A stretch of 64,000 nt of DNA from a virus. Lineage: Duplodnaviria > Caudoviricetes. The position numbers and the translations under genes are program-made. The notes below the pieces were generated by a model that was not told the origin of the DNA, did no database searches, and saw nothing but the letters and a program-made list of their open reading frames with translations. Numbering within the stretch: position 1 is the stretch's first letter; each line of letters opens with the position of its first letter. Shown piece after piece: positions 5,341 through 33,283 of the stretch. The stretch lies in IMG/VR virus record IMGVR_UViG_3300028581_000001, positions 896 to 64,895 of that record; one strand, written 5' to 3'.

Positions 5341-5354
5341 CTGACTTAAAATAT

Positions 5355-5400
5355 ATCAATAGGTTTTATACCTCTAAATAAAACTTACCTTTGTAAACAA
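5355..5400 (-). promoter_or_regulatory. Hairpin element copy A
   Basis: TTGTTTACAAAG-N18-TATAAAA with AGG/CCT stem. Confidence 0.7.
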
Positions 5401-5610
5401 CTAATAATCTAAACCCCTACTAATGAGTTCTTCTTTCAATGCAGATACAAATGGACAAAGCCATTCTATGTATCTATCATCAAAATCAAATTCAAATTCT
5501 TTATCAATCTTTTCAGATAGATAAAGTCTATATGAATTAAGTAAGTGTTTATTAGAGTAGGTCTCAATATATTTAATATTGATATCTACTCATTGTAATG
5601 TTTGAGACAT
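5401..5610 (-). CDS. Hypothetical protein (69 aa)
   Basis: MSQTLQGVDINIKY...RGLDY*. Confidence 0.65.
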
Positions 5611-5629
5611 AATTTTTTAAATTATATAT

Positions 5630-6000
5630 TATTGGTGGACTGGCTTACCAAAGATCAGGTAAGACTAACATAAAATAATTTATGTACGCAGCCCATAAAA
5701 AGATTAAGGCTGTACACAGCTGTACTAAAACTCCTTAATCTTATATGATATATTATACTGCTATCAACAGTTGAATACTTTAGAGATAATATATATCCCA
5801 TTCGCAAAAGTATTTCTCAAGCTACATTTTTTAATTAAGCTTTATTGACTGAGTATACTACGTATAGTTTACCACTGCAGTCTCAAGTATCAGGCGAGTC
5901 TCTCTCTCGCATGAGACCTATGAATGCAGGCATAGGTTGCTCGTATAGTATTGAAATTCTGCAGTTCAATACTACGCAAACAACCTACGCCTGAGACATA
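5630..6000 (-). ncRNA. Candidate structured RNA / long leader
   Basis: Series of hairpins including a 67-nt imperfect stem at 5927-5993; no ORF. Confidence 0.4.
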
Positions 6001-6002
6001 GT

Positions 6003-6233
6003 CTATTTACAATTTTGATTTTGTTCTTGAATAAGTTCAGAAAGAATAATATCATTAGAACTTCTTTCGATTTTATTTTGAAGATCAAAACAATAAACAT
6101 TTTTATTAACATTATGAAACCATAATGCTAAACAAATAAATATAGTAATGATTCAAACTATCAATCATTGAACACAGCCTTTTATAAAAGCTGTTTTACG
6201 AGAACATACTCTCGTCTTATTAAATTGATTCAT
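6003..6233 (-). CDS. Small membrane protein (76 aa)
   Basis: One hydrophobic segment GLIVGIITIFICLALWF. Confidence 0.6.
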
Positions 6234-6239
6234 TTGTAT

Positions 6240-6647
6240 TTATTTATTATTATTAAATACATTTCAAGAGTTAGATGAATACATCTTAATCTCATTTAAG
6301 AGTTTAAGATTATATTCTCTAACTTCAAGAAGTTCTTTTTCTTTTGCATTAAGTTCTCTGTCTCTTACAGCTTTATATTCTGTAAAAGTATCAGAGAATC
6401 ATTCAGCAATATTAATAGATTTATGCCGAGTATCTCTCATAGATTTATTATCATTGATCACCACTTTAGTATCAGCTTCTTTACTTTTAATTTTTAATTT
6501 CAAAGTAATATTGGCTGACCTTAAAGTAGGATGTTCAATTATAAACATAGCATCATCTGATATTTGAACTACTGTTTTAACTACAGTAGCTATGGTTATG
6601 TTATCTGCAACAGATTCAACAATACCATATGCTTCTTGTTTATTCAT
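6240..6647 (-). CDS. Hypothetical protein (135 aa)
   Basis: Track ORF 6399-6647 extended through TGA to TAA. Confidence 0.7.
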
Positions 6648-6655
6648 AATTAATT

Positions 6656-7582
6656 TTATTTAATACGAAATATAAAGTTCTCGTCAATAGTTTGACGTAG
6701 AACAACTGACATGCAATTCAATACATTATTATTCCATCTCTCTAATGAAGTTGCATAGTAACTAGGATCACCTCAACCTCAAGGACTAAGACTTCAAACA
6801 GATTGCTTATGTCAAAGCAAATCATTATTTAAAGTTTTAAAAATCGCACGAACTCAAGATTCAAGAGTAGGAAATGAAACTTTATTTCATCTATCATTGT
6901 TGCCTACATTACCTATATTATTTTTTGTTTTAGTATGTCTTCAGATTGTAGTGTCAGCCCGAGATATACATAACCCAAGTTCTTTCTTTATCTTAAAATC
7001 TTTTTCTGCACGAATCCAGTACTCAACTGGAACCTTAGCATTCAAAGTAATTTCTTCAAAAGAAGAACCATATAATTCAGACCTAGGTTTTGTTTCTCAA
7101 AAACTTGTGTAACCCCATCAATCTTTAAATACTCTTTTAGGAATTATCTTTTTGATGGAGGGTACTGGACTTATAGCCCCTGTTGCAACTCATGAATTAA
7201 TGAAACCAGTAAGTGTAGATCAAGTAGAAACTATATTAAAGTTAATTCTTATTGTATTAGAATTAATCTTATAAAAAGAATCAATAGATTTCACAATTCA
7301 TGTTTGACTATTTCATTTAATTATTGCTTCTATATATATTTGATCAGCAATAACAGATTGTAATTTAGCTTCTAATTCTGTTCTTGTATTTAAAGTAACA
7401 GATAAATCAGCAGAAGCTTGATTAATAATATTAGCTCTTATGTATTCAGGATTGCTAATCCTATTTATATAAGAAGTTATTGTAACAAAAGTATAAACAA
7501 AAACAAAAAGAACAATAGTAATTATAGATTTTATCTTGGCTCATGCGAGTAAGTCTATAATTTTAATTTTAAAATTTTCCAT
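6656..7582 (-). CDS. Membrane-anchored protein with C-terminal lysozyme-like (glucosaminidase-type) domain
   Basis: N-terminal TM helix and coiled coil; C-terminal LCIS(CGG)ADTTIG..KNNIGNVGNND..FPTLESGVRAI..YATS..WNNNV. Confidence 0.55.
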
Positions 7583-7662
7583 GTTTATATAAAAGTTAAA
7601 TAATAAAATATGGAACTTACGATACTATTTTACATTCGTATACTTACGAACTATAAAATAAT

Positions 7663-7708
7663 ATCAAAGGGTTTTATACCCTTGAATTAAATCAATCTTT
7701 GTACACAG
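7663..7708 (-). promoter_or_regulatory. Hairpin element copy B
   Basis: CTGTGTACAAAG-N18-TATAAAA with AAGGG/CCCTT stem. Confidence 0.75.
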
Positions 7709-7861
7709 TTAAAGTGTCTGGAATTTCCAAACTGTTAATAACCAACCTACCATGAGTGCTATAATAATTCAAGACTTATCTCATGTAAAAATACTAAACA
7801 CTAACACAATCAAATCTAATATGATTGCTAATGTTAGTAACCACGATTGTATCTTCTTCAT
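7709..7861 (-). CDS. 50-aa two-TM membrane protein
   Basis: Two hydrophobic stretches. Confidence 0.6.
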
Positions 7862-7900
7862 AAATGAATTAGATTAATAAATAAAATATAAGATAGATCT

Positions 7901-8017
7901 CTATCTTTTCTTAGCAATAAGAATTGCCTGCTTAACAGCATAAACAAATCTTTCTTTACTAGCAGAAATATCTGCTCAATAAAGATATGCTAATACTAAT
8001 AATTTAATTAACTTCAT
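7901..8017 (-). CDS. 38-aa hypothetical peptide
   Basis: ATG to TAG directly after element C. Confidence 0.45.
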
Positions 8018-8061
8018 AACAAATAAGATTAAATAATAAAATACTTACGATACAAAGATAT

Positions 8062-8105
8062 ATCAAGAGGTTTTATACCTCTATTAAATCAATCTTTGTA
8101 CACAG
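8062..8105 (-). promoter_or_regulatory. Hairpin element copy C
   Basis: CTGTGTACAAAG-N16-TATAAAA with AGAGG/CCTCT stem. Confidence 0.75.
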
Positions 8106-8159
8106 AACCATAACAACTAATCCAAGCACAGGAGATATACTCCTGTACTAAATTAATCT

Positions 8160-8318
8160 TTATGATGGATATGCTATAGGTAGATTCCTTTCTATACAAA
8201 ACTTATTAATCAATCTTGCTTCATAAGGTTTAATCTTATCAGCTCACCTTACTCATAACAATTGATGTCTACAGTATGAACCTCTTGCAGCTCATACATC
8301 CTGTCAGTTTATTATCAT
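8160..8318 (-). CDS. Hypothetical protein (52 aa)
   Basis: Open with TGA=Gly; ACAGGAG/CTCCTGT hairpin downstream. Confidence 0.5.
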
Positions 8319-8328
8319 AGATATATTA

Positions 8329-8895
8329 TTAAGAAATATTAATATGATCATCTTCCCATTTTCAATATGAATCAATATACTTAATGGTAGATTTAATGTC
8401 TTTATTTTGAACTGCATTATTAAGTGGAACAAATATATTCTTAAGATCAGCATTCTCTTTTGTTAATCAATTGATAACTTCTTCATTGTGTTCAATGATT
8501 CATTCTATCTCTTGACATATAGTAACTATCTCATTTATTTTCTTATCAGTAAAGAATTCATTATTGATTCTTTCTGTAACAATGTCTGCTTTATACATAG
8601 TATTAATTTGGTTAGTGTTAATTAAAGGTTCGTTATAGTCTCAATCAGCACTACCTCAAAGAGTTTTCCTTGTATCATTAGTCTTATTACCATATATATC
8701 ATAGTCTCTGAATAATGAAAAAGGATAAGATCATGTAGTTCATTTATCATTAGTTATTTCATAGCCATAATCATAAACATATCTAACCTTATAATGTTTA
8801 CCAACAGTAAAATAATATTGATAGTTATCAATTTTATTCTTAATACACATTACATACTTATCTTTCTTATAAGAAGTACGAGTATAATTTCACAT
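8329..8895 (-). CDS. Hypothetical protein (188 aa)
   Basis: Open with TGA=Gly. Confidence 0.7.
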
Positions 8896-8913
8896 ATTAA
8901 TTAAGTTAAAAAA

Positions 8914-8960
8914 TATCAGGGGATTTTATACCCCTGAATTAAATCATTCTTTGTAAACAA
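8914..8960 (-). promoter_or_regulatory. Hairpin element copy D
   Basis: TTGTTTACAAAG-N18-TATAAAAT with TCAGGGG/CCCCTGA stem. Confidence 0.8.
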
Positions 8961-8962
8961 AA

Positions 8963-9247
8963 CTAATCAATAGATGATGTGATTATACTAATGATATCTT
9001 CTTTGCTTCTTTTAGCAGTAAGCCGACATCATCAGTAAGCAAATCAATCTGATTCTTCTAATAAAATATATGAATAACCATCAAAGAAATCAAACCGAAC
9101 ATATGATTTCTTTCAGAACCGAATGTATTCAGAAGTCTTATTAATCTTTGCATCCTTAATCATATGCTTAACAATTTCTGGTAGTGACTTCTTTAATAAT
9201 TCATTATCGAAATCAGCTATCAAAGTAACTTTACGCTTTACTTTCAT
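8963..9247 (-). CDS. Hypothetical protein (94 aa) with three CGG codons
   Basis: EYI(CGG)FG, YV(CGG)FD, GGC(CGG)LT. Confidence 0.65.
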
Positions 9248-9897
9248 GTTTGTTCAAGGTTACATTCTAAATTAATCTCATCAATAGGAGACTGCAAATC
9301 TTGAGGTTTAAAGTTATATCAAGAGCAGTCGGCTATATACATAGCCTGTTCCCATATATCTGCATTGTCAGGAGCATGTTCATATGCTTCTATAACTCAA
9401 CCATCAATCTCTAAATCATCAAGATTACTTTCTCTATTAGAAAATATTTCATACACAGTAGCATTGATAGCTTTCTCTGATGTAGATTCTTCTAATACAA
9501 AATACTTTCAATCTTCATTGTATCATTTGAACTCAAATGATTTATCATTACAATAATAATCTTTGAGTTTAGAATACACAATCTCGCAGAACTCTTGAGC
9601 TTGATACATAACAATTTCATCTTCTGAAATATCATCTTCCATAATCATTTCAACATACTTCATAATAGTAGATTCATTCTGTTCTTCTTCTAAACAAAAT
9701 TGTTCCCATTGTGTCTTAAGATTATTAAGTAGATCTTCATTATCAATTTCATTTCATTGCATATCACAAACTTGAAATTCATCAAAAGATCAACCTCAAT
9801 AATAATAAGTATTGTTATGTGTTACATAACCTACATATCAAGTGAAATCTAATACTAGATCACACTTGTATGTTTTAGTTTCACTTCTTAAAATCAT
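9238..9897 (-). CDS. Acidic hypothetical protein (219 aa)
   Basis: Open with TGA=Gly; D/E-rich. Confidence 0.7.
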
Positions 9898-10397
9898 AAA
9901 TTTTCTGGAAAATTAAAAGATAAATGTGCTCATATAGATATAACAATAATAAATGTTGCTATTGCCCATATGATTAATACTCATTCATATTGACTATCTG
10001 TCATAGTAGTATCATATCTTATTGGTTCTTCAGATGTACTTCAAGTAAAATCAAACATATCTAGTAATCATATTCAATCATTATGATATACATGAACAGT
10101 AGTTATTATTGGAGTATATCATTCATAATCTCTACTACTATAAGATTCAGATGGTTTAGTTTTAGTAGTAGATTTAGAATAACTATTACTAGAACTAGAT
10201 TGTTTAGTATAATTACTAGACTTATATGTATTATTAGTACTAGTAGACTCTACGGCTTTACTCCGAGTAGTATTACTTCTTGTTGCATTTGAAGAGCTAG
10301 ATGTTTCTATTGTAGCAGTTCATCATCATGCTCTTGCATTTACAGTAGCTATTCATATAAATAAAATAAACAGCATTAAAATTAATCTTAACTTCAT
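9888..10397 (-). CDS. Signal peptide, Ser/Thr-rich linker and C-terminal TM (169 aa)
   Basis: MKLRLILMLFILFIGIATVNARAGGG...; C-terminal VLIIWAIATFIIVISIG. Confidence 0.65.
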
Positions 10398-11020
10398 AAT
10401 TGAATTGATTTAAGAAGTAAATTATTCATAACAGTTTCCTTATTAACTTGAGCTTGTTTATTTCTATGCTCAATAATAGAATCTATCTCTGACTTAGCAT
10501 CATCAATACAATCGTCCTTATCAAAATAATCACACATCCATTCATTATCTTCATCTTCTGATTCTTTAATACAAGCCATCCGAACATCTCATCTTAAGTA
10601 TGCATCAAACTCTTTGACTTCTTCTCTAAGATGTTGAATAGCTTTTAATCTTTGAGTAGACTTAATACTTGCTACTCAATATTCCTCACGTAGTTTCTTT
10701 TTAGATACATATATATATCATACCTGACCACTATCCCAAGGACAACTGAATGGTTGAGTTGCTATAGTTACTCAGCTATGTTGATACATATATACTGGTA
10801 GATAAACTACTTCTTTAACTAACAATCATTTTTCTTTTAAATGCATAGCGAAATCATCTGCAAATGAAACTCAATAACATTTCATTCGCTCATCTCATAC
10901 ATCAATATTCCTATGATTATATATCATAGTTCATAAATGATCATAGTTATCTCTAGGATTATCTGGATTATCACAATTCATATAATTAATAATCCAACCT
11001 CTATGTTCCAATGTTTCCAT
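10388..11020 (-). CDS. Conserved phage/MGE hypothetical protein (210 aa)
   Basis: NPR..HLGTM, LPVYMYQHSG, CPWDSGQVGYIY and YLRGDV motifs, recalled as recurrent in phage early regions. Confidence 0.75.
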
Positions 11021-11021
11021 T

Positions 11022-11462
11022 TTAATATTTATTAAGAAGTAAAGTAAGTTTATCAATAGAGTCACTAAGTAAATTAATAGACTCTTGACATCACAATTCT
11101 AATCATCTTAGTAATCATTGCTCGAAACATATCTCTTCAGTAGTAGACATAGCTTCAAAGTTTTCAAGCATGTCTTCTGCATTTTTAAATCACCAATCCT
11201 TAGGATTAGTTCTTCAAAGAATATTCTTACAATAATTTTTCTTATCATTCTTAACAGAAAGTTCTTGTAACAATCTTAAGTCTTCTAATAGTTTAGGCAA
11301 TAAAGTATTTATTAATATCTTATTTGACATAAGAGATCAACATACGAATTGCTCATCACTATCATTCTTCATAGCTTTATCATAAGTATATCAATAATCT
11401 TTAATTGCTTTAAGATCTTCATTGATATTTTCTGATAATGATTTAACAAATTTATTTATCAT
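11022..11462 (-). CDS. Hypothetical protein (146 aa)
   Basis: Open with TGA=Gly. Confidence 0.65.
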
Positions 11463-11700
11463 AGCTCACTTGATTAATAATACAATGATCTGCAGACATG
11501 GTTAATACTGCAGGCTTATCACAATGATTCACTCTTATTGAATCTTTATCTATCATCATCCATTCAATAGAATAATTATCATACTTATTTGATATCCTTT
11601 CACAAAGACATCATTCTTCATCTTGAAGATTAAATTCTTCTTTAGTATTAGAATATAAATCTATCTCTCAAGACTGAAAATTTAAAACAACTGTAATCAT
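11452..11700 (-). CDS. Hypothetical protein (82 aa)
   Basis: Open with TGA=Gly; follows element E. Confidence 0.6.
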
Positions 11701-11723
11701 GATATATGATTGTTAAGAAATAA

Positions 11724-11770
11724 ATACAGGGGATTTTATACCCCTGTAATAATTCAGACTTTGTAAACAA
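11724..11770 (-). promoter_or_regulatory. Hairpin element copy E
   Basis: TTGTTTACAAAG-N18-TATAAAAT with TACAGGGG/CCCCTGTA stem. Confidence 0.8.
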
Positions 11771-11773
11771 ATC

Positions 11774-11929
11774 TTATTCAAATTCTTTAACGAACCTAGA
11801 ATTACAAGAACATCATTCTGTAAAATAAGTTCTAGAATAATATTCTGATTTTTTCCCTGCATTGAATTGCGATACTGGTCTATGGTATCACATAACACGA
11901 GTATATACTTCACATCTTTGTCTCTCCAT
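11774..11929 (-). CDS. Stand-alone class III RNR (NrdD) C-terminal glycyl-radical peptide (51 aa)
   Basis: MERQRCEVYTRVMGYHRPVSQFNAGKKSEYYSR; RVxGY radical loop with Gly encoded by TGA. Confidence 0.85.
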
Positions 11930-11990
11930 ATAATATAAAATTAGTAAATAAATGGTACTAATAATTATATCAAATAAATATAGAAAGCAA

Positions 11991-13397
11991 CTACTTCTTA
12001 GTTTTCGTCTTGACCTTTATTTCTTTTGTTACATCACTAGATTTAGTGGCAACAAAAGGTGTAGCCCTTGCCATTATAACCTGAAGTCAATCACATTCAT
12101 TATCAATTATATCATAGTTCTTTTGACTAATCAATCATGCTTCATCAATTAATATGAAATCTAATCATAATTGTTTGACGAATGCTAATGATAATCTTAT
12201 CTGACATAGTAATCTATTACCTCAAGATAACTCAGTATATGGTTGTCTATTCAGCATTATCTGAAATGATTCAACTACATCTCAATTAGCTTGTGTCTTG
12301 AATAATTCTATATCAAGTCAAAGACCTTTCACTTTATCTTCAAGATCTTTAGTGAATTGTATCTTATACTTCTTAATGAATGTAAGAATTTCTTTATCAT
12401 TAAGTTCACCTAAAGCTTTGAGTTGTGCTTCCTTAATACCAAGTTCTCTCTTAGCAGATTGATATTCATTAACCATATCTTTATCCACTTGATTAGATTG
12501 TCTAAGTATCATCTGTAAGAATCATGCCTTCTGATCTATAGTCATAGGATTCAAAGGTTCAGGAACAATGTTAGTAGGTAACAATGGAATTGATTCAAGA
12601 TCAGCTAACTGTCTTTTTAATTCTTTACCTTTAGCATTGATTCATTCTACAACTTTAGTATATTTATCTGAAGATAACTCAGCTCAACAAGCAGGACAAT
12701 TCTTTTTAACATTCTTAAACTCTTCACGAAGATCTTCTATCTTTGTTTTAAGATTAGTAATGTTAATCTGATTCCTATTGTTAGTAGCAACAGCTTCATT
12801 GTTTGCTAACTGAATAGCTATACGATTACCATTGTATTTACTTTCGTACTCTCTATACTTAGATTCTATCTCTGAAGAATTATCTTCTATTGATACAGGA
12901 TTCTTTTCAAACTTAGTAACTATAGATTTGAATCTAATTATATCATCTAAGATAATATCTTCTTTACCTTTATTCTCTTTCAACCTAGCATTCAATTCTT
13001 TCTCCAGAGTTGGTGTCCATCATGGAACATTATCTTTCATGTATCATTCAAAGTCTACACCTAACAGTTTAACTAATGTTAATCTTTGTTCAGGTGTTGA
13101 CAAATTAAAGAATTCTCATGGTAGTATATATTTAATTAATGCATTAGGTTCTTGATCTAATCATATCCATAATGCTTTACTTAACATATATACTTTATCT
13201 GGAGTATGAATCTTAGCAGATCATGACGGAAGAGTTCTAAGTCAAGGATACTTCTTAGAATACAAACTCAATAATGTATTAAGTATTGTTGACTTACCAT
13301 ATCCATTTGGTTCTTCTATTAGATTAATTCATGGTCAGAATTCTCTTTCCAATTTTAATCAGAAGTCTGGATAGTTTATCTCTATCTTATTAAACAT
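11991..13397 (-). CDS. Rad50/SbcC-like ATPase (468 aa)
   Basis: Walker A EPNGYGKST, coiled coil with CPACG zinc hook, LSGG signature, FILIDEAG Walker B. Confidence 0.85.
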
Positions 13398-13415
13398 AGT
13401 TCATAAGGGTTAGTA

Positions 13416-13685: not shown

Positions 13686-13703
13686 AATAAATTGGGTTAA
13701 AGA

Positions 13704-13750
13704 ATACAAGAGGTTTTATACCTCTTTAGTATTTCAGTCTTTGTAAACAG
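13704..13750 (-). promoter_or_regulatory. Hairpin element copy F
   Basis: CTGTTTACAAAG-N18-TATAAAA with AAGAGG/CCTCTT stem; overlaps the 3' end of the upstream gene. Confidence 0.8.
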
Positions 13751-14039
13751 ACAAGTCTATTCACTTAGATTTAAATATCATTCATATAACTAATAGATCA
13801 GGTAGAATAATATCTAACTTGATCCAGTAAGTTCAATGTGTTCAGTTATATCCATAACTGCTTCACTCATTGGAGATAGCACAATCAATCTCTACACCAT
13901 TATCTATTGTTATAGTCAATGGTTTATCAATAAACTTCCTTGCATCAAATGATTCAGGAACATTGAATGTAGCAGATATGTTTCAATCTGCTATACTCTT
14001 TGTGCTAATACCTTTTCATGGAATAAACTCTATGTTCAT
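13716..14039 (-). CDS. Hypothetical protein (107 aa)
   Basis: Open with TGA=Gly; its TAA lies in the loop of element F. Confidence 0.6.
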
Positions 14040-14185
14040 AGTTCTATTATTATTTTAGTAGATTTCATATCATCCCATAATATTGGACGAACATACTTAT
14101 GAACATATTTTCTTAATAAGTTTTGTCTTCCAGTTAATAATCTTATTAACTTAGAAGTTCTAGGTCAATGTACATATATTACCAT
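14030..14185 (-). CDS. Hypothetical protein (51 aa)
   Basis: Open with TGA=Gly. Confidence 0.45.
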
Positions 14186-14188
14186 ATA

Positions 14189-14467
14189 TTAATTATTATC
14201 GCTTTCAAATAAATCTTTTATAAATTGATTACATGCTTCAACAGAAAATCAATATTGACTATCAAAATAATCTTCTATGTATTCCATTATTTCATATAAT
14301 TCTCAACATTCTCATATATGATTACGAATAAAAGATTCTATTTCATTAGTAGTTTTAACAAATGTATTAGCATTTTCTAAAGAATTATTACTATCTTCAT
14401 AATATATTGTATATCAATCTTTTTCTTTAGTTAAATATAATTTAATAAATTCAAATTCTTTAATCAT
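14189..14467 (-). CDS. Acidic hypothetical protein (92 aa)
   Basis: Open with TGA=Gly. Confidence 0.6.
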
Positions 14468-14468
14468 A

Positions 14469-15371
14469 TTAACATTGTTTATATAAATAAAAGTTCTCAC
14501 CATTTACTTTGACTTCATCTTCATCTCAGTTCCGTCTATTAAGAAAATGTCATCTTCAGTCAGCTGTAATAGCATCTTCAACGAATTCATCAAAATCATC
14601 TATTAATCTAATGACTGCTGCATTTCATCATTCACATTTTTCTTGTATAGCTTTAAGTATATCATAAGATCAATCATCATGATCTAATGCTTTACTATGA
14701 TCTATAATAAAATCTGGATTAAAAGCCCAAGCAGATTCTTTTATTTCATCAGCACATTCTTTATCTGCTTCTTTATCTGTGCATACTAGATATTCATTTC
14801 ATTCTATATAGAATATATTATCTTTATATCATTTATCTATGTAACTTAATCATGATGTTGACACATCACAATTAATACACATAGCTAAAAGCTTGTTAAC
14901 TCATATTCAAAGTTCTTCAGCTTTAACTAATATAAAAGATTCATTTTTCATATCTTCTGTAATTTTTACAGGATAATTCTCTGCATCTTCTTGTTCTATA
15001 TTGGAACATAATGCTTCGATAGTCTTATCAAAATCACTAGGTAGATCATTGATAGTCCAACCATGTCCATATATATAAGGTTTATCTTTATATATATCAA
15101 TATATGCTGTACAGAATCTTGGATCAAATGAATCTACTTTACGTTGTATCTCTTTAGTTCCTGCATTCATACCATTCAAATGATATTCTTGCCATACACT
15201 TAATAGTTCCTCTTGATATTCTCATAGAGGTTCTATACTATCCTGACATTGACCACTATCTCACGACATAGTAAATTCAGGATATCAATTCCTGTAAGTA
15301 ATTTCAGCTTTGATATTCCATAGCTTTCAATTCTTATCATGGAATTTAACTTTTCGAATTAGTTCTTTCAT
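14469..15371 (-). CDS. Conserved phage hypothetical protein, probably two domains (300 aa)
   Basis: GQC..W..YHLNGMNAGT N-domain; YLVCTDKEAD..WAFN..ADGRGHFLNR(CGG)NGDE C-domain. Confidence 0.75.
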
Positions 15372-15483
15372 TTTAATTGTGGATTATTTAAATAAAGTAT
15401 TTCTTTTTGTATAGCAATAACTCTCTCACTTAATGTTGCCCATTCCTGCAATAATTTATTAATCTAATCTTGATTATTCATAG

Positions 15484-17898
15484 TTAATGTTTAACATATA
15501 AATTTTCAAATGTAGTACAACGAGAAAGTCATACATACAAAAGTTCTTTTGACATTCACTTAATATATGTTAAGCATACATTATCTAGTGAAAGTCATTG
15601 ACTATTATGTGAAACAAATCATTGACATACAAATGAATGATCTCATTCAATTTCTATATCATATGTATTTCTAATTCATATATTTTCTATAGAAACTATT
15701 TTATCATAATAGAAATTATTATCTAATGTTTTATTTAATACTTTTAATATAAATCATTTTGATCTAGCAAATGAATCTAAATATATACATTGTTTATAAG
15801 AAAGATTTTTATATCTTAAAATAGCTTTAAGTTTTTTATCTTTATTATATCACAATCATTTAATACATTCTTTAAATTCATCTATTATTTTATTTCTATT
15901 AATAACAAAATCAATACTAGATTTTCATTTAGATATAAAATTAATTAATCTATCTTGTTTATATCAAACATTAAATCATAAATATTTATTGAATAACATA
16001 ACATTTATTCAAGTTATATTTAATACATATGCTTGATTATGTTTATCTGAATATTTATTTAATTTATTAATATAACTTACTATTCAGAAATCTAATAATA
16101 AAAGTTTAATCTTATTAATTAAATCTTTTGAAATAGATACATATCTAATATTTCAATTCTTAGAAATAGATCAATCAGTATCAAATAATCATTTAAGTAC
16201 ATTAGATTTTATTAATCAATTAGATTTGAAAATTCAATCTGGTATTGTTTTATCTTTTCATGTACAATAATCTAATCATATTGTATATAATAAATCTCTA
16301 AACATTTTAGAAGTAAATATAATTGACTTCGCTTTATTATCTTTTTTTCATTTTAATAAATAATTAATTCAAAAATTAGATAATAATTCACAACTACTAT
16401 TTAATATATGTTCATCCATAGAAGTTATATCAATTCTTCAATCATCTTTATAATTATAAGATCAATCTCAAATTAAAACTCAAATGAAATATGCGAAATT
16501 ACTATCTATATATTTTGTTATATATATATCTTTAGATCTATTTCATAAATCTGGTTTGTGTAATTCAATATCATTTCAATCTAAATTAATAGTTCTATTC
16601 ATTATAAGATAATCTCATATATTTAATTTTCAAGATTCAATATATTCGTTTGTATGATTTAATACTGATAATAATCTATGTTCTTTAGTAGTAATAATTT
16701 CTCATCATGATTGTGTAGTTATTTTAATAACTTCTTTTTCTCATGTAAATTCTTTTCATATTACTTTCTTAAAAGAAAATCAAGTATCAACAGTTTGTCA
16801 TAGTTGTATATCTTTAATTGCAAATAATCAATCAGTTGTTTTTACTAATTGATTTTCTTCAATACATTTATGGATTGTCATAGCCCATGAAAGTTTCAAT
16901 GGTATCTGATTATAAGTACCAATAGTTATTTCTGTAGTTCAATCATACTGAACTTCTTTCCATTCTTCATAACCTATCTCAAAGTTACAATCGAATCTAT
17001 CAGAATGAATCTCAACTGTATTGGAATTACATTTAACTACAGTTCAAAGATCACCATTGACTAATCAATTCTGTAAGTTCTTAGTAACCATAATTCTACA
17101 TCATTCTTTTAAATATAGTTCTTCTGGTGTAATACAGTTCTTAGAATTGAACTTACCATATATATATCATTTGTAAATATATTCTTTTGCTTTAACAGTT
17201 TCAAATCTTTTCTTATTAAAAGCATCTACCATATTATTAAATGGCATTAAGTGAACACTATGCTCATCTCAATATCATCTATTGAAATCATATATTGAAC
17301 CCATTTTATTATCTCTAATATTATTAAGTAGTTCAACAAAAGTATTATCTTTTTGTCTACGTACTTTAATTAGATTAAGTTCTTTGAATCAACTATAACA
17401 AAATGCATGATCGAATGTCAGCTTTCAATACTTAGTAACAAGATCTTCTATCTCATTCTTATCCTGTTCTGTGAAACTACCATACACAGGTGGCAATTGA
17501 TTTGGATCTCATACTAATATCATCTGTATTCAACCAAAAGCTTTCTTATTTCATCTCATTTTCTGAAGTAAGTAATTAATATAATCCAGATAGTCTGGTC
17601 CAACCATTGAGATTTCATCAATTACTATTGTATCTATCTCTGGCCAATCAACACTCTGTTGTTTGATGGGCTTATTATGTAAGTAGTTACCGAACATCTT
17701 AAATGTAGAATGAATAGTAGCTCATCATATATTTATTGCTGCAATTCAAGTAGGTGCAACTACTATTACATTCTTTCATTTAGCTCTACTTTGTTTAATG
17801 AATTCCTGAGTTGTATATGTTTTACCAGTTCATGCTTTCCCTGTAAGAAAACAATTAACTCAACTTAACATATGTTCAAGTGCTTTATCTTGTGTCAT
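15484..17898 (-). CDS. Pif1/RecD-like SF1B helicase containing an intein
   Basis: FLTGKAGTGKT, APTGIAA, IDEISM, GDPNQLPP, QIPLKLSWAMTIHK|SQG, YVGLSR. Confidence 0.92.
15604..16866 (-). mobile_element. Intein (421 aa) with LAGLIDADG homing endonuclease
   Basis: Starts CIEENQLV, ends YDIEIEGDHSFVCQGFVSHN before Ser+1; GVLIGDGS and GLFDTDGS motifs. Confidence 0.92.
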
Positions 17899-17906
17899 AA
17901 TGTTAT

Positions 17907-18434
17907 TTAGGTTAAATCAATTAAATCAAATTCTTTACTTGTATAAACATCTTTACTAGATACTAATTCAAATACTTGTTTTAAATCTAGATTTGGATTA
18001 AGTAAATGCATTCAATCAACATAATAAGATCAACTACCAACTGAACAGAAGTCAGCTATCAATGAAACTTCAGTAGGTATAAATCTATATCATTGTTCTT
18101 TAATAATGAAAGCTGTATCTTTCTTATAATGAATAAAGATAATAATAAATTCAAAATCAGTTGGACATATTTGTTTTAGTCTTGATTGTATCTCATATAA
18201 CTTCTCATCATGAGTAAACTCAGGATTAGAAATTATCTTACCTATTGATGTCTTAAGCATTCAAGGTATTATCTTAGGTCCTGATGTTACTATATATATA
18301 GCTTCATCATAGTCTGTAAGTTCTCTAAATATTTTTAGAATCTTTACATTAGTATCATCAATTCAAACATGTCATCATGTTCATCTTTTATCGGCAGCTA
18401 TATACTTGCCTTTCTTATATATCCCTGTTGTCAT
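17907..18434 (-). CDS. Ntn-hydrolase (HslV/proteasome beta-like) protein
   Basis: MTT N-terminus, IAADKRGTGG, SVGSGS. Confidence 0.7.
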
Positions 18435-18996
18435 TGTTAAGCAATGTTAGAAAGTAATCTTTTAATTCAATAAACAATTCTAAGTATCAAGTAGTAACAA
18501 CTTCAAATTTGTAATCGTTCTTATCAAGATATAAGATTCCAGATTTAAGTCAGTTCAAATATTCATATCATCATCATTGTATGAAATATTTTTTACTCTT
18601 AGTCTTAGGTTTATAGTCTATGTTCATATCAGTATCAATAATCGATCCTATGTGTGCCATAAGATCAATGGTTCATTGTATATCTTTTTTAAAGTTCACC
18701 TCTTGTCCAATGATTGTTACATCATAAAGAGTGTGGAACTTCATAATCTGTTTATGTACTGTGTCAGATTCTCAATTAAAAAAGTCCTCAGATTCTTTAT
18801 GTGTTATTGTTCATCTTATGCGAGCTGTCTCTAAAGCACCTGCATGATTCCTTTTAACATATTCAAATCAAGGATCTTGTATTAATTTAAGAATAGTAGT
18901 TACTGATGGCAATCAATCTTGATACCTATCCCAATTACTAGGTAAGGTATCAAGTAGTGAATAACCATTGTCTTCACACCATTGCTTTAATCTCAT
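18415..18996 (-). CDS. PD-(D/E)XK exonuclease
   Basis: PSVTTIL, RGT..H, GTIDL, IDYK, QxxxY. Confidence 0.8.
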
Positions 18997-18998
18997 TG

Positions 18999-20063
18999 TT
19001 AAAAGTCAGGAGTAGATAAGTCAACTTCAAATACTTCCTTAGCAGTATCTTCGAATGGAATATCTGGCATAGCTTCAAGATCTGCTTTCGTCAATTCTCA
19101 AGTAGATAATGCAGGTTGACTAATAACTGTAGTAGCATCAGATCAATTAAGAAGAACTTGATTAGGAGAACCCATTCATCAGAATACAGATTTGAAATGT
19201 TCAAATTGTAATTCTTCAATGAATTTCTTATCTTCTCTGTTATCACCTCATCTAAGAACTACTAGTCAACTATACTCAAACTTAGGCATGAAGTTCTTTT
19301 TCTCATTCTGTTCAATAGTAAGTTTCAGATCTACCTGCGAATCATCAACTTTATTAACAGTTCTCTTACCATTATATGTTAGAACTTCATTAAGAGGAAT
19401 AAGTCATTCACTTACTGCATACTCAAATGTGCCTGCATCAGGTTCACATACTGATCAATCTCTGAATGTAACTCATAGATTTCTAGTAGCAGTAAAGAAT
19501 CTAAAGAACTCTCAATCATATGTTCATCATACAAACTGACCATAGACTACAGCTCATTCAGATAGAAGTGAACCATCAAATGGTTTTCATTCTCTATCTT
19601 TCTTCCTATCATAGAATTGATTATCTCTACCATTTAGAGTTCTAGCTTTAATCATAGCTTTGAAATCTTCTTTACTGAAGAATCATAATGATTTTCCTTT
19701 TGCTGCTAAACCAATTGTATCTGTCTTCTTAAGATACTTTCCATACTCATTCGTATAAAAAGTAATCTTCTCGTTAGCAACAGTACCATTATCCAAAATA
19801 GGATAGATATGTCAGCTATAGAAATAACGAACAGATAAAGGATTAAACACAATAGGACCATCAATGAATTCTTCAACTCAAGTATTAGCTACTTTGAGTT
19901 TAAACTTTCAAGCTTTATCTTCCTCGATAGGATCACCTATTCTTGGATTATAAATCTTAAGTGTATGAATACCATCCATAACTGAGGAGAATCCTTTCTT
20001 ATCAAATTCGACAGCTTGGTCAAGCATGCCTGTACTAACATTGGCAACAGCCTTATCATTCAT
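18999..20063 (-). CDS. Putative single-stranded DNA-binding/annealing protein (354 aa)
   Basis: Beside exonuclease and helicase; acidic tail DIPFEDTAKEVFEVDLSTPDF. Confidence 0.5.
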
Positions 20064-20143
20064 AAAAATGTAAGTTAATAAATAAAATACTTAACTCTAT
20101 TAAGAGCTAACGAATGCCATCAATAGATAGCAAACGTCAGATA

Positions 20144-20518
20144 TTAATCTCACATAAGAAAGTTTATCCGAACATCCATTTCAACATCATAATTATTTTT
20201 TGATTTCCAATATAAATCATTTATTTCATCCCGATAAATATCCCATATTTTTCTTGTTACTTTATATTCTAATGAAATATCAGCATGATATATTTTCATT
20301 TGAATTAATCAATCAGATAGACATTCAGGATCAGAATATTGATTTATATTATTTTCTTTACAATATTTTCTTAACCCTTTCCAATCAATAGAATCTCTAA
20401 ACATTTTATATTCTATTTCTGGAATAATTTTTAATGGTACAACATTAGCAATAAAACATTCTGTTTCGTCAAAATATTTTTCTTGTAATAAAACATACTT
20501 ATCTATTAATTCTTGCAT
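20144..20518 (-). CDS. Hypothetical protein (124 aa)
   Basis: Track ORF extended through TGA; two CGG codons. Confidence 0.65.
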
Positions 20519-20535
20519 ATAAATATAGTTAAATA

Positions 20536-20581
20536 ATACAAGAGGTTTTATACACTTTATTAAAGAAAACTTTGTAAACAG
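20536..20581 (-). promoter_or_regulatory. Hairpin element copy G (imperfect stem)
   Basis: CTGTTTACAAAG-N17-TATAAAACCTCTTG. Confidence 0.65.
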
Positions 20582-20583
20582 AA

Positions 20584-20820
20584 CTAAAGCTCCAACTTTG
20601 TATAATCAATTCAAGCTTCTTTTCATTTCTGAAATCTATCTAGAAGTAATGAATTGATATGATTGTAAATAATATCTTTACTTGCTCATACATAAATTAA
20701 TTGTATTTGAGCATTAATATAAAATTGTTCTTCTTCTGTTAGAACTATTTTATGTTCTTCCATTTCTTCTTGTGTGAAGGAACATCTGTTACCTTCATCA
20801 TCTACTTCTCTACATCACAT
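20584..20820 (-). CDS. Hypothetical protein (78 aa)
   Basis: Open with TGA=Gly. Confidence 0.6.
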
Positions 20821-20832
20821 AGTTTTATATAG

Positions 20833-21651
20833 TTAATAAAATAATTTAATTAATTTTCTTTCTTCAACTATTGGATCTCTAATTGATTTTTGTTTATGAA
20901 ATAAATTATGACAATTTATACAAAGATGAATTATATTATTTATATGATGTAAATTTTCATGTTTAGGTTTTTCACTTCTAAAAATAATATGATGATGTTC
21001 CCATCTTAATGAATTATTAGTTCAACAATATTGACAAAATCTATATCAATATTTTGATTCCATTTCTTCATTTTGAATTTTACAATTTTTAATAAACTCA
21101 TTTCTTTTATAATGATGATCAAAATTATTATTTCATTTTTTATACATTCAATTTCTATATGCAGGATTATTTTCTCAAATCCTTTGTTCTTTTAATAATA
21201 TTAACTGACATTCTTTTGAACATGTTTTAAGTTTTGTTCTATATCACTTAAATTCTTTTCAACATTTTATACAAATTAAATTATATCTTAATTTTTTTGA
21301 ATTTAATATATATCTTTCTTTATGTTTTTCATAATCAATCTTGGCAAATTCTTTTTTCTTTTTATATAAATTTTCTTTATATATAGGATCATTTAATTTT
21401 TCTTTTAAAAGATTTCTTCATCTTGCTAATTTACATATATGAAAAGAACAAGTTAATTGATTATGTACTTTTTTTATAAACTCTTCTCAACATATAATAC
21501 ATTTGTGTCAATCTCTTTCATATACTTTACGTATAGTATCTGCATCTAACTTACGTACAGTATTATGTCAAGAGGTTTTATACCTCTTGATTTTGATTGA
21601 CTTTGTAGGCTTGGCGAATTTAAAGTCAACGTATGAATCTGTATTGTTCAT
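20833..21651 (-). CDS. HNH endonuclease with zinc-finger repeats (272 aa)
   Basis: VYERDGHKCIICG, CxxC..TCS repeats, CQYCG..EHHHII..NIIHLCINCH. Confidence 0.8.
21567..21610 (-). promoter_or_regulatory. Hairpin element copy H (inside HNH coding sequence)
   Basis: CCTACAAAG-N18-TATAAAA with 8-bp TCAAGAGG/CCTCTTGA stem. Confidence 0.7.
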
Positions 21652-33270: not shown

Positions 33271-33283
33271 ATATTTTTAACTA

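What the first reader, a model, noticed from the sequence alone, without database searches (positions are those of the whole stretch)
5355..21610. Family of bipartite hairpin elements: candidate promoters for the phage's own virion RNA polymerase
Seen: at least 8 copies (loops at 5364, 7672, 8071, 8924, 11734, 13714, 20546, 21576), all in one orientation, of minus-strand (T/C)TGT(T/G)TACAAAG-N16-18-TATAAAA (N18 in 6 of 8; copy H keeps only TACAAAG). TATAAAA is the loop of a stem whose arms change together: AGAGG/CCTCT, AAGGG/CCCTT, TCAGGGG/CCCCTGA, TACAGGGG/CCCCTGTA, TCAAGAGG/CCTCTTGA. Pairing rather than sequence appears selected. Most copies sit just ahead of a gene start, and all are in the early/replication region. 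TTTACA to TATAAA spacing is ~21 nt, outside the sigma70 17+/-1 range. There is no U-tract, so they are not terminators. Established: N4 virion RNAP uses extruded DNA hairpin promoters, but it is a T7-like enzyme with 3-nt loops. Inference: a hairpin/cruciform promoter with a 7-nt loop and upstream box read by a two-barrel virion RNAP, a pairing I do not know to be described. Alternatives are an activator-dependent host promoter, an RNA-processing site or a cassette-recombination site.
Basis: partly seen in the sequence, partly recalled or inferred. Interest (0 to 1): 0.9.

Follow-up and report, generated by a model that had tools for sequence, protein, structure and literature searches.

The report
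Phage-specific promoter-like hairpin cassettes
A 65-kb lake phage that reads TGA as glycine carries eight same-strand copies of a 50-base signal (a conserved box, then a hairpin with TATAAAA in its loop) between its early-type genes; they are most likely phage-specific promoters with a built-in transcription brake, and which polymerase reads them is still open.

Summary
There are 8 of 8 exact copies on the minus strand (0.13 expected). Six of 8 have a hairpin whose arms change together. I also found three degenerate copies.

The window is almost all of a complete 64.9-kb phage that reads TGA as glycine. Its 4461-aa protein folds like the catalytic core of two-barrel RNA polymerases.

The elements are not host-type promoters. 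A code-25 bacterial MAG holding related phage contigs uses TTGNNN-N16-TATNNN (11 of 21 tRNA upstream regions). The phage uses that type before its capsid and giant-gene operons, and 0 of 8 elements fit it. The upstream box recurs, co-oriented, in two related phages and is near chance level elsewhere in the MAG.

- Four of 8 hairpins have T-rich tails and pass a terminator scan.
- The relatives keep the box without the TATAAAA hairpin.

The closest known design is the promoter-plus-stem-loop cassette (PeSL) of T4-like phages, but without a sigma-70 -35 box.

My best reading (0.45) is a phage-specific promoter/attenuator cassette. I put an N4-style hairpin promoter for the giant polymerase at about 0.2. 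No RNA data exist. This scan has flagged similar hairpin-plus-box candidates on other phage DNA.

The parts
5340..5405 (-). Element A. Box TTGTTTACAAAG starts right after the TAG stop of the 69-aa ORF. The stem is weak (AGG/CCT plus one more pair). It points into 749 nt without an ORF.
   Evidence: (66.9 bits)
7648..7713 (-). Element B. Stem AAGGG/CCCTT with a T-rich tail. It lies 90 nt ahead of the ATG at 7582. Two CGTAAGT blocks lie downstream.
   Evidence: (77.0 bits)
8047..8110 (-). Element C (N16). Stem AGAGG/CCTCT, in a 311-nt gap, 54 nt ahead of the ATG at 8017. One CGTAAGT block lies downstream.
   Evidence: 74.6 bits
8900..8965 (-). Element D. Stem TCAGGGG/CCCCTGA with an 8-nt loop, then TATTTTTT. 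It fills the 67-nt gap between the stop at 8963 and the ATG at 8895.
   Evidence: 77.7 bits; -12.9 kcal/mol
11709..11775 (-). Element E. Stem TACAGGGG/CCCCTGTA. It fills the 73-nt gap between the stop at 11774 and the ATG at 11700.
   Evidence: 70.5 bits; -15.3 kcal/mol
13690..13755 (-). Element F. Stem AAGAGG/CCTCTT. The upstream 107-aa ORF ends with the TAA inside TATAAAA. It lies 29 nt ahead of the ATG at 13685.
   Evidence: (71.7 bits)
20522..20586 (-). Element G (N17). The box, TATAAAA and the 3' arm CCTCTTG are kept, but the 5' arm is mutated, so there is no stem. It lies between the stop at 20584 and the ATG at 20518.
   Evidence: z -0.10; 64.8 bits
21552..21617 (-). Element H. Box variant GCCTACAAAG and the best stem (TCAAGAGG/CCTCTTGA), with no T-rich tail. 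It lies after the stop of a 47-aa ORF but inside the 5' end of the 272-aa HNH-like ORF as read from its only start, 21651.
   Evidence: z -7.6; 60.9 bits
4729..4780 (-). Weak ninth copy: CTGTTTACAAAG, N8, TATAAAA within an A/T palindrome. It lies about 80 nt ahead of the 142-aa gene. A further decayed copy lies at about 4829-4895.
   Evidence: (23.7 bits, E 0.11)
22944..23020 (-). Variant copy: GCCTACAAAG, then a terminator-like hairpin (23007-22988), then TATAAAATC, then a host-type promoter (TTTGCA-N16-TATACT) ahead of the HNH gene at 22383-22904.
40323..53708 (-). 4461-aa ORF (296 TGA codons read as Gly) with a two-barrel RNA-polymerase-like core at about residues 1900-2500. This is the candidate phage polymerase.
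54471..54557 (-). Contrast feature: a canonical terminator followed by a host-type promoter (TTGATT-N16-TATACT) ahead of the 232-aa gene and the giant gene.
33180..33283 (-). Contrast feature: a canonical terminator after the putative capsid gene, followed by a host-type promoter (TTGTAA-N16-TATAAT).

Best explanation
The elements are phage-specific regulatory cassettes placed at gene boundaries in the ORFan-rich and DNA-metabolism arm of the genome.

Each cassette joins two things:
1. A promoter that host RNA polymerase alone should not recognise. It has an upstream box, YTGTKTACAAAG plus a TGA(T/A)T block, which is the sequence-specific part and is shared with related phages. It also has a -10-like TATAAAA 18 nt further on.
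2. A G-run/C-run stem-loop wrapped around that TATAAAA.

In RNA made from upstream, the stem-loop and its T-rich tail act as an attenuator or terminator that insulates each unit from the one before.

A start 5-10 nt past TATAAA would give a 20-30 nt leader that still carries the TTTAAC ribosome-site-like motif.

The box is read by a phage-encoded factor: either the giant two-barrel polymerase itself or an unrecognised specificity factor acting on host polymerase.

Shown: the anatomy, the covariation, the misfit to host-type promoters, the phage-specificity of the box and the terminator-like tails.
For: Copies and placement:
- 8 of 8 copies are co-oriented with the genes, against 0.13 expected.
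- 7 of 8 lie at or across a gene end, and 28-90 nt ahead of the next ATG in 6 of 8.
- The whole 50-nt block is conserved, with 75% mean column identity.

Hairpin:
- The three stem versions (AGAGG/CCTCT, AGGGG/CCCC, AAGGG/CCCTT) all pair.
- B, D, E and F pass the terminator scan on the coding strand. The region has 16 such sites against 2.2 expected, and 9 of the 16 rows are element hairpins.

Host-type promoters:
- TTGNNN-N16-TATNNN occurs in 11 of 21 tRNA upstream regions of G005, against 0.8 in shuffles. G005 is a 1.1-Mb MAG with tRNA(UCA) that holds related phage contigs.
- The phage has this type before the giant-gene operon, after the capsid gene and before a tail-fibre-like gene. None of the 8 elements contains it.
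- By the strict N16 test the intergenic spaces from 5.3 to 21.6 kb hold one weak match (7917), plus an N15 site at 11930-11990.

Box in relatives:
- The core box TACAAAKANTGA occurs 4 times in G000 and 4 times in the syntenic relative G001, always on the gene strand. In G005 it occurs 7 times, 5 of them in the 23-kb phage contig C4. Controls give 0-2.
- In G001, C4 and L050 the box lies inside the end of the SbcC-like gene and is identical at synonymous positions.

Precedent and exclusions:
- PeSL cassettes of T4-like phages have the same order: stop codon, -35, a stem-loop most often between -35 and -10 or over the -10, ribosome site, ATG. They were shown to act as both promoter and terminator (PMC2839356, passages; PMC4122927, passages).
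- No sigma factor or second polymerase was found.
Against: - No transcript data exist, so no start or end is mapped.
- TTTACA-N21-TATAAA and ACAAAG-N18-TATAAA do not fit the N16 rule of the host-type promoters. Promoter activity therefore needs an unknown reader.
- In G001 and C4 the box has no -10-like word at a fixed distance. It is often followed 16-50 nt later by an ordinary terminator, which would be odd just after a start site.
- H lies inside an ORF with no in-frame start downstream.
- The fixed spacing in G000 could reflect recent copying among elements rather than function.
- G005 stands in for the host. It is not shown to be the host of this phage.
Confidence: 0.45

Rival explanations
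1. N4-style structural promoter. Supercoiling extrudes the inverted repeat as a DNA hairpin, the 7-8-nt A/T loop is presented single-stranded, and the injected giant two-barrel polymerase binds the box and hairpin and starts just downstream.
For: - Pairing is kept by compensating changes while the loop is fixed.
- GC-rich arms around an A/T-rich centre fold well as DNA in 6 of 8 copies.
- The giant protein has a two-barrel polymerase core, and its nearest viral fold matches include crAss-like giant proteins.
- The crAss-like polymerase gp66 transcribed denatured DNA, and its early transcripts showed no common upstream motif, so that promoter type is still undefined (bioRxiv 10.1101/2020.03.07.982082, passages).
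- The relative G003 has 5 copies of a different element: a tiny covarying hairpin followed by a fixed box. Two of them lie right after ordinary terminators.
- Host-type promoters sit before the late genes and the giant gene, as in phi14:2.
Against: - A and G lack a stable hairpin yet keep the box and TATAAAA.
- G001 and C4 encode the homologous giant protein and keep the box without this hairpin. One box is followed by an ATG 27 nt later.
- L049 has the TATAAAA hairpin without the box, so the two parts separate.
- There are eight to eleven sites over 18 kb. N4 has three sites at the entering end, and few injected enzymes are available (PMC4496689, passages).
- Virion packaging of the giant protein is not shown.
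Confidence: 0.2
2. A purely RNA-level signal. The elements are transcribed from upstream. The hairpin is a weak terminator, and the box with the conserved loop is the RNA binding site of a phage protein that sets read-through, like lambda nut boxA/boxB or a RAT-type antiterminator. On this reading a single host-type promoter at about 22.95 kb drives the whole arm.
For: - The design of a linear box, a spacer, and a hairpin with a fixed A-rich loop and variable stem is typical of protein-bound RNA (my own knowledge of nut and RAT sites, not from a call).
- T-rich tails follow 4 of 8 hairpins.
- In G001 and C4 the box lies 16-50 nt ahead of ordinary terminators, one of which has a T-G pair that works only in the sense RNA.
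- A host-type promoter lies at the head of the arm.
Against: - The variant box at 23018 lies upstream of that promoter, so it would not be in that transcript.
- A box in C4 has no hairpin after it.
- A degenerate box in G001 heads a unit at a divergent junction where nothing is transcribed from upstream.
- The copy with the strongest hairpin (H) has no T-rich tail.
- No RNA-binding antiterminator was recognised.
Confidence: 0.22
3. RNA processing or stability sites. A phage or host endoribonuclease cuts at the box, and the hairpin protects the new 5' or 3' end of each cistron.
For: The elements lie at cistron boundaries. The box is conserved on the sense strand only. A stable hairpin follows it.
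Against: No nuclease candidate was found beyond the HNH genes. The stems are too short for RNase III (my own knowledge). This reading does not explain the -10-like loop, or why the arm lacks host-type promoters.
Confidence: 0.06
4. Ordinary host promoter or chance repeat. Host sigma-70 polymerase alone reads TATAAAA, or the copies are neutral leftovers of duplication.
For: TATAAA resembles the TATAnn -10 words of the host-type promoters.
Against: - 0 of 8 elements have TTGNNN at N16.
- The full motif is at control level in the 1.1-Mb MAG, 4 matches against 3 in the control.
- The strand bias, the placement and the compensating changes argue against neutrality.
Confidence: 0.04

Closest known systems
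PeSL (promoter-early stem-loop) cassettes of T4-like phages (Arbiol et al. 2010, PMC2839356; Comeau et al. 2014, PMC4122927; passages read)
   Same: A composite signal that runs from the stop codon of one gene to the start of the next. The stem-loop is a G-run and a C-run, most often placed between -35 and -10 or over the -10 box. There are many co-oriented copies in the ORFan-rich part of the genome. Conservation extends over 50-100 bp. Small cassettes are flanked by copies.
   Different: PeSLs carry a near-consensus sigma-70 promoter (TTGACA-N17-TATAAT or TTTACW-N17-TAYWAT) read by host polymerase. Here no host-type -35 lies at the host spacing (0 of 8), and the upstream box is phage-specific. 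Promoter and terminator activity were measured for PeSLs and not here. Cassette shuffling between close relatives could not be tested.
Early promoters P1-P3 of coliphage N4, read by the virion RNA polymerase (review PMC4496689, passages)
   Same: A hairpin with fixed and free stem positions kept by pairing, in a phage with a giant polymerase. The promoter is unlike the host's.
   Different: The N4 enzyme is T7-like and single-subunit. N4 has three sites at the entering genome end, stems of 5-7 bp with a 3-nt loop, and conservation from -17 to +1. Here the loop is 5-8 nt and A/T-rich, a box lies 18 nt upstream, there are 8-11 sites over 18 kb, and 2 of 8 copies have no stable hairpin.
Transcription programme of crAss-like phage phi14:2 (bioRxiv 10.1101/2020.03.07.982082, passages)
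   Same: A giant two-barrel polymerase gene next to the structural genes. Host-type promoters stand before middle and late genes, including the polymerase gene. The other genes have no host-type promoter.
   Different: In phi14:2 the early transcripts showed no common upstream motif, whereas here a strong one exists. The sequence of its tripartite middle promoter is in a supplementary file and figures that I could not see.
AT-rich promoters of the tape-measure-fused virion polymerase gp96 of Thermus phage P23-45 (bioRxiv 10.1101/2022.12.01.518664, passages)
   Same: A two-barrel virion polymerase with its own AT-rich motif ahead of pre-early genes. The motif is present only in relatives that have the enzyme.
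   Different: The main text has no occurrence of 'hairpin' or 'stem-loop'. Those start sites were mapped, and none is mapped here.
Lambda nut sites (boxA plus boxB) and RAT-type antiterminator targets (recalled, not from a call)
   Same: A linear box, a spacer, and a short hairpin with a fixed A-rich loop and a variable stem, placed just ahead of terminator-like structures.
   Different: Those act as RNA, one per operon (nut) or per regulated leader. Here there are 8-11 copies at gene boundaries, and no antiterminator protein was recognised.

Membership tests
PeSL-type promoter/terminator cassette | [quoted passage not shown] | tested here: met
   6 of 8 start 0-13 nt after a stop. 6 of 8 lie 28-90 nt before an ATG. 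All 8 are on the gene strand.
PeSL-type promoter/terminator cassette | Stem-loop of G-run/C-run type between or over the promoter boxes | tested here: met
   6 of 8 have 5-8 bp stems around TATAAAA.
PeSL-type promoter/terminator cassette | Sigma-70-type -35 and -10 boxes at host spacing | tested here: not met
   0 of 8 contain TTGNNN-N16-TATNNN. The host-clade rule is N16, seen in 11 of 21 regions.
PeSL-type promoter/terminator cassette | Measured promoter and terminator activity; recombination between copies | not testable with these tools
   No RNA runs are listed. The DNA runs hold the same sequence with one base difference and a few small insertions in single contigs, and no credible joints at elements.
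N4-type DNA-hairpin promoter | Short stem with a 3-nt loop and conservation from -17 to +1 (PMC4496689) | tested here: not met
   Loops are 5-8 nt, an extra box lies 18 nt upstream, and A and G have no stable hairpin.
N4-type DNA-hairpin promoter | Read by a virion-packaged, T7-like single-subunit polymerase | tested here: not met
   No T7-like polymerase was found. The giant protein is of the two-barrel type. Its packaging is untested.
Host (sigma-70-type) promoter | TTGNNN-N16-TATNNN, as upstream of tRNA genes in the code-25 MAG G005 | tested here: not met
   0 of 8. The full motif is at control level in G005, 4 against 3.
Intrinsic terminator | GC-rich stem followed at once by a T-run | tested here: inconclusive
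   4 of 8 (B, D, E, F) pass the scan on the coding strand, and A, C, G and H do not. The phage's clear terminators have T5-8 directly after the stem.
nut/RAT-type antitermination site | The element is transcribed and bound by an antiterminator protein | not testable with these tools
   No RNA data. No such protein was recognised.
Two-barrel (crAss-type) phage RNA polymerase, for the 4461-aa protein | Double-psi beta-barrel core with a D-x-D-x-D metal site | tested here: met
   D588, D590 and D592 are invariant in 15 sequences. The model has pLDDT 63 overall and 75-90 in the core. All 50 top PDB matches are polymerase large subunits, Pol IV or QDE-1, best E 4.5e-4. There is no sequence match to PDB at E of 1 or better.
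Two-barrel (crAss-type) phage RNA polymerase, for the 4461-aa protein | Packaged in the virion and injected | not testable with these tools
   The only support is gene position, next to the terminase, portal and capsid genes.

The most novel reading that the evidence does not exclude
The elements are the promoters of a crAss-type, two-barrel, injected RNA polymerase in a phage of a code-25 (CPR) bacterium. The enzyme reads the conserved box as sequence. It uses the A/T loop, opened by extrusion of the GC-clamped inverted repeat, as a ready-melted entry point. This would be the first defined promoter for this enzyme family. It would also be a second, independent invention of the N4 'promoter as shape' principle.
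Probability: 0.2. Interest if true: 0.85.

Novelty: new variant of a known kind. Interest (0 to 1): 0.55.

Why it matters
Phages with giant two-barrel polymerases (the crAss-like phages and their kin) are among the most abundant viruses. How the enzyme finds its early genes is unknown: in the one studied phage, the early transcripts showed no shared motif.

This uncultured phage offers a sharp candidate signal of 50 nt with two separable parts. One part is conserved in relatives. A clear host-type promoter class in the same genome serves as an internal control.

If the elements are promoters of the phage enzyme, they give a template for in vitro work. If they are PeSL-like cassettes read with a helper factor, they extend that design from T4-like phages of Proteobacteria to a phage of a recoded candidate-phylum bacterium. 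Either way they help to annotate transcription units in recoded phages.

Tried and rejected
Expression data. No RNA holder is listed for 5200-14200. Nine lake-water DNA runs hold the stretch.

Strain variation. I laid four DNA runs on 4600-23200. They carry the same sequence in short contigs, with one base difference and a few small insertions in single contigs. The joints have sides of only 21-23 letters, which I take as spurious. This gave no strain variation and no cassette indels.

Motif scans elsewhere.
- The exact motif in IMG/VR hits 31 contigs with one match each, which I judge to be chance level by my own rough estimate.
- The covariance model R1 on those 31 loci and on the G005 phage contigs gave nothing above 30 bits.
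- L012 has two weak hits that share TTACAAAGCG. I read them as an unrelated phage and did not follow them.
- R1 on the relatives G001-G003, L049-L051 and L053 gave at most 18 bits.
- The exact motif in G001-G004 gave one match, in G002.

Searches for relatives.
- The capsid protein alone found no relatives in IMG/VR.
- A metagenome scan with the SbcC-like alignment gave only short contigs of closer relatives.

Other promoter registers, tried by eye, none consistent across copies:
- TTGATT as -35 paired with TATAAA (11 nt apart).
- The 5' arm as -35 paired with TGnTATnnT after the 3' arm. This would start downstream of the TTTAAC motif.
- TTGATA or TTGACA in the 3' arm as -35 (spacers of 17-20 nt).
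- The promoter scan of the region is at shuffle level, 150 found against 161.

Other checks.
- IHF-site and Shine-Dalgarno readings of the mid-box and the 5' arm were considered and dropped (wrong consensus or wrong distance).
- Rfam gave no family at gathering score in the window.
- The CGTAAGT block is not enriched window-wide, 12 against 5.6 expected.
- Pfam at E up to 1 on eight small proteins gave no regulator.
- The crAss001 paper holds nothing on phage promoters.
- Searches for a described hairpin promoter of a crAss-like polymerase found none in the held library.

Not seen.

Full report
WHAT THE WINDOW IS

The window is bases 896-64895 of a single 64,895-bp contig with a 127-bp terminal overlap, so it is a complete or near-complete phage genome.

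Under the standard code it has almost no long ORFs. With TGA read as sense, 61 kb falls into ORFs of 150 codons or more, 49 kb of it on the minus strand. In the largest ORF, TGA makes up 6.63% of codons. All four GGN codons together make 0.45% and TGG makes 0.40%. So TGA stands for glycine (table 25), the code of Gracilibacteria and Absconditabacteria. Most predicted Absconditabacteria phages were reported to share that code (PMC10746230, passages).

Genes recognised:
- a large terminase (37730-39802)
- a primase-helicase and a replication initiator (54.5-57.2 kb)
- an exonuclease
- a Pif1-like helicase split by an intein with a LAGLIDADG domain (15484-17898)
- an SbcC-like ATPase (11991-13397)
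- HNH endonucleases
- two HU/IHF-like proteins
- an endolysin

No sigma factor and no T7-like polymerase were found.

THE OBSERVATION

Aligned, the whole block of about 50 nt is conserved, with 75% mean column identity. Its parts in order are:
- CTGTTTACAAAG
- a block (A/T)nTGA(T/A)TTAAT
- a purine-rich arm
- TATAAAA
- the arm CCYCTTG
- (A)TAT and T-rich sequence

Six of 8 copies have perfect 5-8 bp stems. The same six fold better than shuffles as DNA (z from -2.0 to -7.6) and as RNA (-8 to -15 kcal/mol). A is weak. G has lost its 5' arm.

The three stem versions (AGAGG/CCTCT, AGGGG/CCCC, AAGGG/CCCTT) all pair. On the alignment, 89.6% of cells pair, 2 of 6 pairs change on both sides, and 8 of 500 shuffles reach the covariation score. 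With eight related copies this is moderate evidence that pairing is selected, not proof.

A covariance model finds the eight at 61-78 bits and a ninth at 4729-4780 (23.7 bits, E 0.11). Reading the sequence shows two more copies. One is decayed, at about 4829-4895. The other is a variant at about 22944-23020, in which a terminator hairpin sits between the box and TATAAAATC.

POSITION

- Six copies begin 0-13 nt after the stop codon of an upstream ORF.
- F overlaps the end of a 107-aa ORF whose stop is the TAA inside TATAAAA.
- C lies in a 311-nt gap.
- H lies after the stop of a 47-aa ORF but inside the 272-aa HNH-like ORF, which has no other ATG, GTG or TTG start in its first 90 codons.
- Copies D, E, F and G fill gaps of 65-75 nt and end 28-34 nt before the next ATG.
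- B and C lie 90 and 54 nt before an ATG and, like A and H, carry one or two CGTAAGT blocks 20-23 nt past the loop.
- A points into 749 nt without an ORF.
- A motif TT(T/A)AAC lies 14-19 nt (in one case 7 nt) before many start codons, also inside operons. It behaves like a ribosome-site signal, so any transcript for D-G must start upstream of it.

NOT A HOST-TYPE PROMOTER

The phage has ordinary modules of a terminator followed by a promoter: a 7-8 bp stem, a T5-8 run, then TTGNNN-N15-17-TATAnT. These are seen at 1475-1594, 33180-33283, 54471-54557, 11930-11990 and 22905-23113.

To learn the host rule I looked for a host-clade genome. A terminase alignment found one hit among genome contigs: a contig of the 1.1-Mb MAG G005. 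G005 has 40 tRNA matches, including tRNA(UCA) genes at two places. It also holds a second related phage contig, C4, of 23 kb.

In the 80 nt upstream of 21 tRNA genes or clusters of G005, TTGNNN-N16-TATNNN occurs in 11 of 21, against 0.8 in shuffles. Other spacings stay near background, apart from N18 (6 of 21), which I take to be mostly the same promoters in another register, and N22 (4 of 21).

By this strict test the phage has host-type promoters ahead of the giant-gene operon (54526), after the capsid gene (33235), at 30776 and at 1531. None of the eight elements contains one. The intergenic spaces between 5.3 and 21.6 kb hold one weak match (7917), plus an N15 site at 11930-11990. The full element motif is at control level in G005, 4 against 3.

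G005 is a stand-in. It is not shown to be this phage's host.

RELATIVES

A profile-free search with residues 1851-2850 of the giant protein found 908 proteins. They include about a dozen full-length giants (3.8-5.2 thousand aa) that carry W where ours has G, so they come from TGA-recoded phages called under code 4.

IMG/VR holds three complete relatives of 64-67 kb, all TGA-recoded (G001-G003). G001 is syntenic with this phage.

G001 and the G005 contig C4:
- None of G001-G003 has the full element.
- G001 and C4 carry a related box, TAG-CCTACAAATACTGAT, always on the gene strand and usually using the upstream stop codon as its first three bases.
- The shared core TACAAAKANTGA occurs 4 times in G000 and 4 times in G001. 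In G005 it occurs 7 times, 5 of them in the 23-kb phage contig. Controls give 0-2.
- In G001, C4 and L050 one box lies inside the last codons of the SbcC-like gene and is identical at synonymous sites, while the surrounding tail of the protein varies. That points to selection on the nucleic acid.

What follows the box in those phages varies:
- an ordinary terminator 16-50 nt later (G001 11280, 23181, 23434; C4 1885)
- nothing but 27 nt and an ATG (C4 1626)
- coding sequence

No -10-like word sits at a fixed distance from the box.

Other relatives:
- The short contig L049 (SbcC-like gene 53% identical) has TTAATAGAG-TATAAAAT-CCTCTAAT between a stop and a start codon, but with a different upstream part. 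So the box and the TATAAAA hairpin are separable modules.
- G003 has its own five-copy element: a tiny covarying hairpin (GCC-TTC-GGC, GGC-AA-GCC, GGATC-AAA-GATCC, GCC-TAC-GGC) followed by a fixed 25-nt box. Two copies lie directly after ordinary terminators.
- G002 has a third motif, in 3 copies.

Lineage-specific motifs beside a shared host-type promoter fit recognition by a fast-evolving phage factor.

THE GIANT PROTEIN

- Pfam sees only DUF7831, and PHROGs and PDB sequence searches see nothing.
- The alignment of 15 homologues keeps R-x-P, paired K/H and D-x-D-x-D invariant.
- An AlphaFold model of the 1000-aa core has pLDDT 63 overall and 75-90 over most of residues 80-640.
- Its 50 best PDB matches are all large subunits of multisubunit polymerases, plant Pol IV or QDE-1, with probability 0.75-1.0 and best E 4.5e-4. 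TM-scores are low because only a domain matches.
- In the viral library, the named matches among the best include giant proteins of crAss-like phages and viral polymerases.

So the 'giant RNAP gene' is supported at the level of fold prediction. That the protein is packaged and injected is only suggested by its place beside the terminase, portal and capsid genes.

WHAT THE ELEMENTS MOST LIKELY DO

However, four of eight hairpins (B, D, E, F) pass a simple terminator test on the coding strand. The region holds 16 such sites against 2.2 expected, and 9 of the 16 rows are element hairpins.

The closest described design is the PeSL of T4-like phages. [quoted passage not shown] Its promoter and terminator activities were measured, and recombination between copies shuffles small genes (PMC2839356 and PMC4122927, passages).

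The elements here share that anatomy point for point, except that the -35 box is replaced by a phage-specific box at a non-host spacing.

My best reading is therefore a phage-specific promoter fused to an attenuator hairpin (confidence 0.45). The box is the recognition site of a phage-encoded reader. TATAAAA is the melting or -10-like part. The hairpin works in RNA from upstream.

The distribution supports a promoter role: elements occur where host-type promoters are missing, and host-type promoters occur where elements are missing. Further support comes from a box embedded in the end of an upstream gene and from a degenerate box at a divergent junction in G001. These are inferences. No transcript end has been seen.

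RIVALS

1. N4-style reading, about 0.2. It keeps real support: covariation, a GC clamp around an A/T centre, a two-barrel enzyme whose crAss-like cousin acts on denatured DNA and has no known promoter, and the tiny-hairpin elements of G003. It is weakened by the stemless copies A and G, by relatives that keep the box without the hairpin, and by the number and spread of sites compared with N4.
2. RNA-only reading, in which box and loop form a protein-binding site that controls read-through of weak terminators, 0.22. It fits the G001 and C4 pattern of a box ahead of terminators. It does not explain boxes without hairpins or a box upstream of the only host-type promoter at the head of the arm.
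3. Processing sites (0.06).
4. Host-only promoters or neutral repeats (0.04).

NOVELTY AND SCORE

I found no paper in the held library that describes a hairpin or bipartite promoter for a crAss-type polymerase. The P23-45 work shows that a two-barrel virion polymerase can have its own AT-rich promoter; its main text has no occurrence of 'hairpin'.

Earlier notes of this scan report similar 'hairpin plus box' candidates in other uncultured crAss-like phages. I did not test those, and they are not independent evidence.

I file the finding as a new variant of a known kind, the promoter/stem-loop cassette. There is a 0.2 chance that it is the first defined promoter of a two-barrel injected polymerase. 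Interest is 0.55: the signal is clean and testable, but function rests on inference and both phage and host are uncultured.

Noticed in passing
window 40323-53708 and genome-wide: TGA is used for glycine almost to the exclusion of GGN. In the giant ORF there are 296 TGA codons against 20 GGN codons, and TGG is only 0.40%. I did not test it.
   Followed up: partly
many gene starts, e.g. 8910, 13701, 17916, 28821, 33193, 54485, 61163: TT(T/A)AAC lies 14-19 nt (once 7 nt) before start codons, also inside operons where the upstream gene abuts. It looks like the ribosome-site signal of this phage and its host, in place of a Shine-Dalgarno sequence.
   Followed up: partly
window 2405-5400: About 3 kb has no convincing ORF apart from the 142-aa gene at 4223-4651. 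It holds tandem repeats (TTTACTGT x3 near 4157-4180, TATTAC x5 near 2650-2675), a strong terminator near 4190, several host-type promoter matches (4003, 3870, 3493, 2803, 2769) and decayed element copies. Rfam and ARAGORN find nothing. It may be an origin or packaging region, or hold non-coding RNA.
   Followed up: no
downstream of elements A, B, C and H (e.g. 7615-7624, 8043-8052, 21548-21556): A third block, (T/A)AYCGTAAGT, lies 20-23 nt past the loop in four copies, twice in B and H. It is not enriched window-wide. It could be an operator or a leader motif of a subclass of the elements.
   Followed up: partly
window 15484-17898: The Pif1-like helicase is interrupted by an intein with a LAGLIDADG homing-endonuclease domain.
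   Followed up: no
window 20833-21763 and 23247-23411: A 47-aa ORF, the start of the 272-aa HNH-like ORF and a 54-aa ORF all carry similar CxxC...CC(S)F.C zinc-finger-like N-termini. The 47-aa ORF overlaps the HNH ORF by 32 nt, with element H between them. This may be a split or decayed homing-endonuclease gene.
   Followed up: no
G003 (L045-L047): 11979, 23539, 26918, 27739, 28125: A related 64-kb recoded phage has five co-oriented copies of a different element: a tiny covarying hairpin followed by ACACAACTACTAAAAATTTTATGG. Two copies lie just after ordinary terminators. G002 has a three-copy motif ATCCCAAAGCCAGCCCT.
   Followed up: partly
G005 contig C4 (L093): about 7285-7435: The related phage contig in the MAG carries adjacent tRNA-Met and tRNA(UCA) genes, so that phage may supply its own TGA-reading tRNA. 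ARAGORN finds no tRNA in this window.
   Followed up: no
window 11774-11929: A 51-aa ORF matches only the C-terminal part of anaerobic ribonucleotide reductase NrdD (Pfam NRDD, E 1e-7, among the 47 small proteins scanned). I infer which member it is from its sequence.
   Followed up: no
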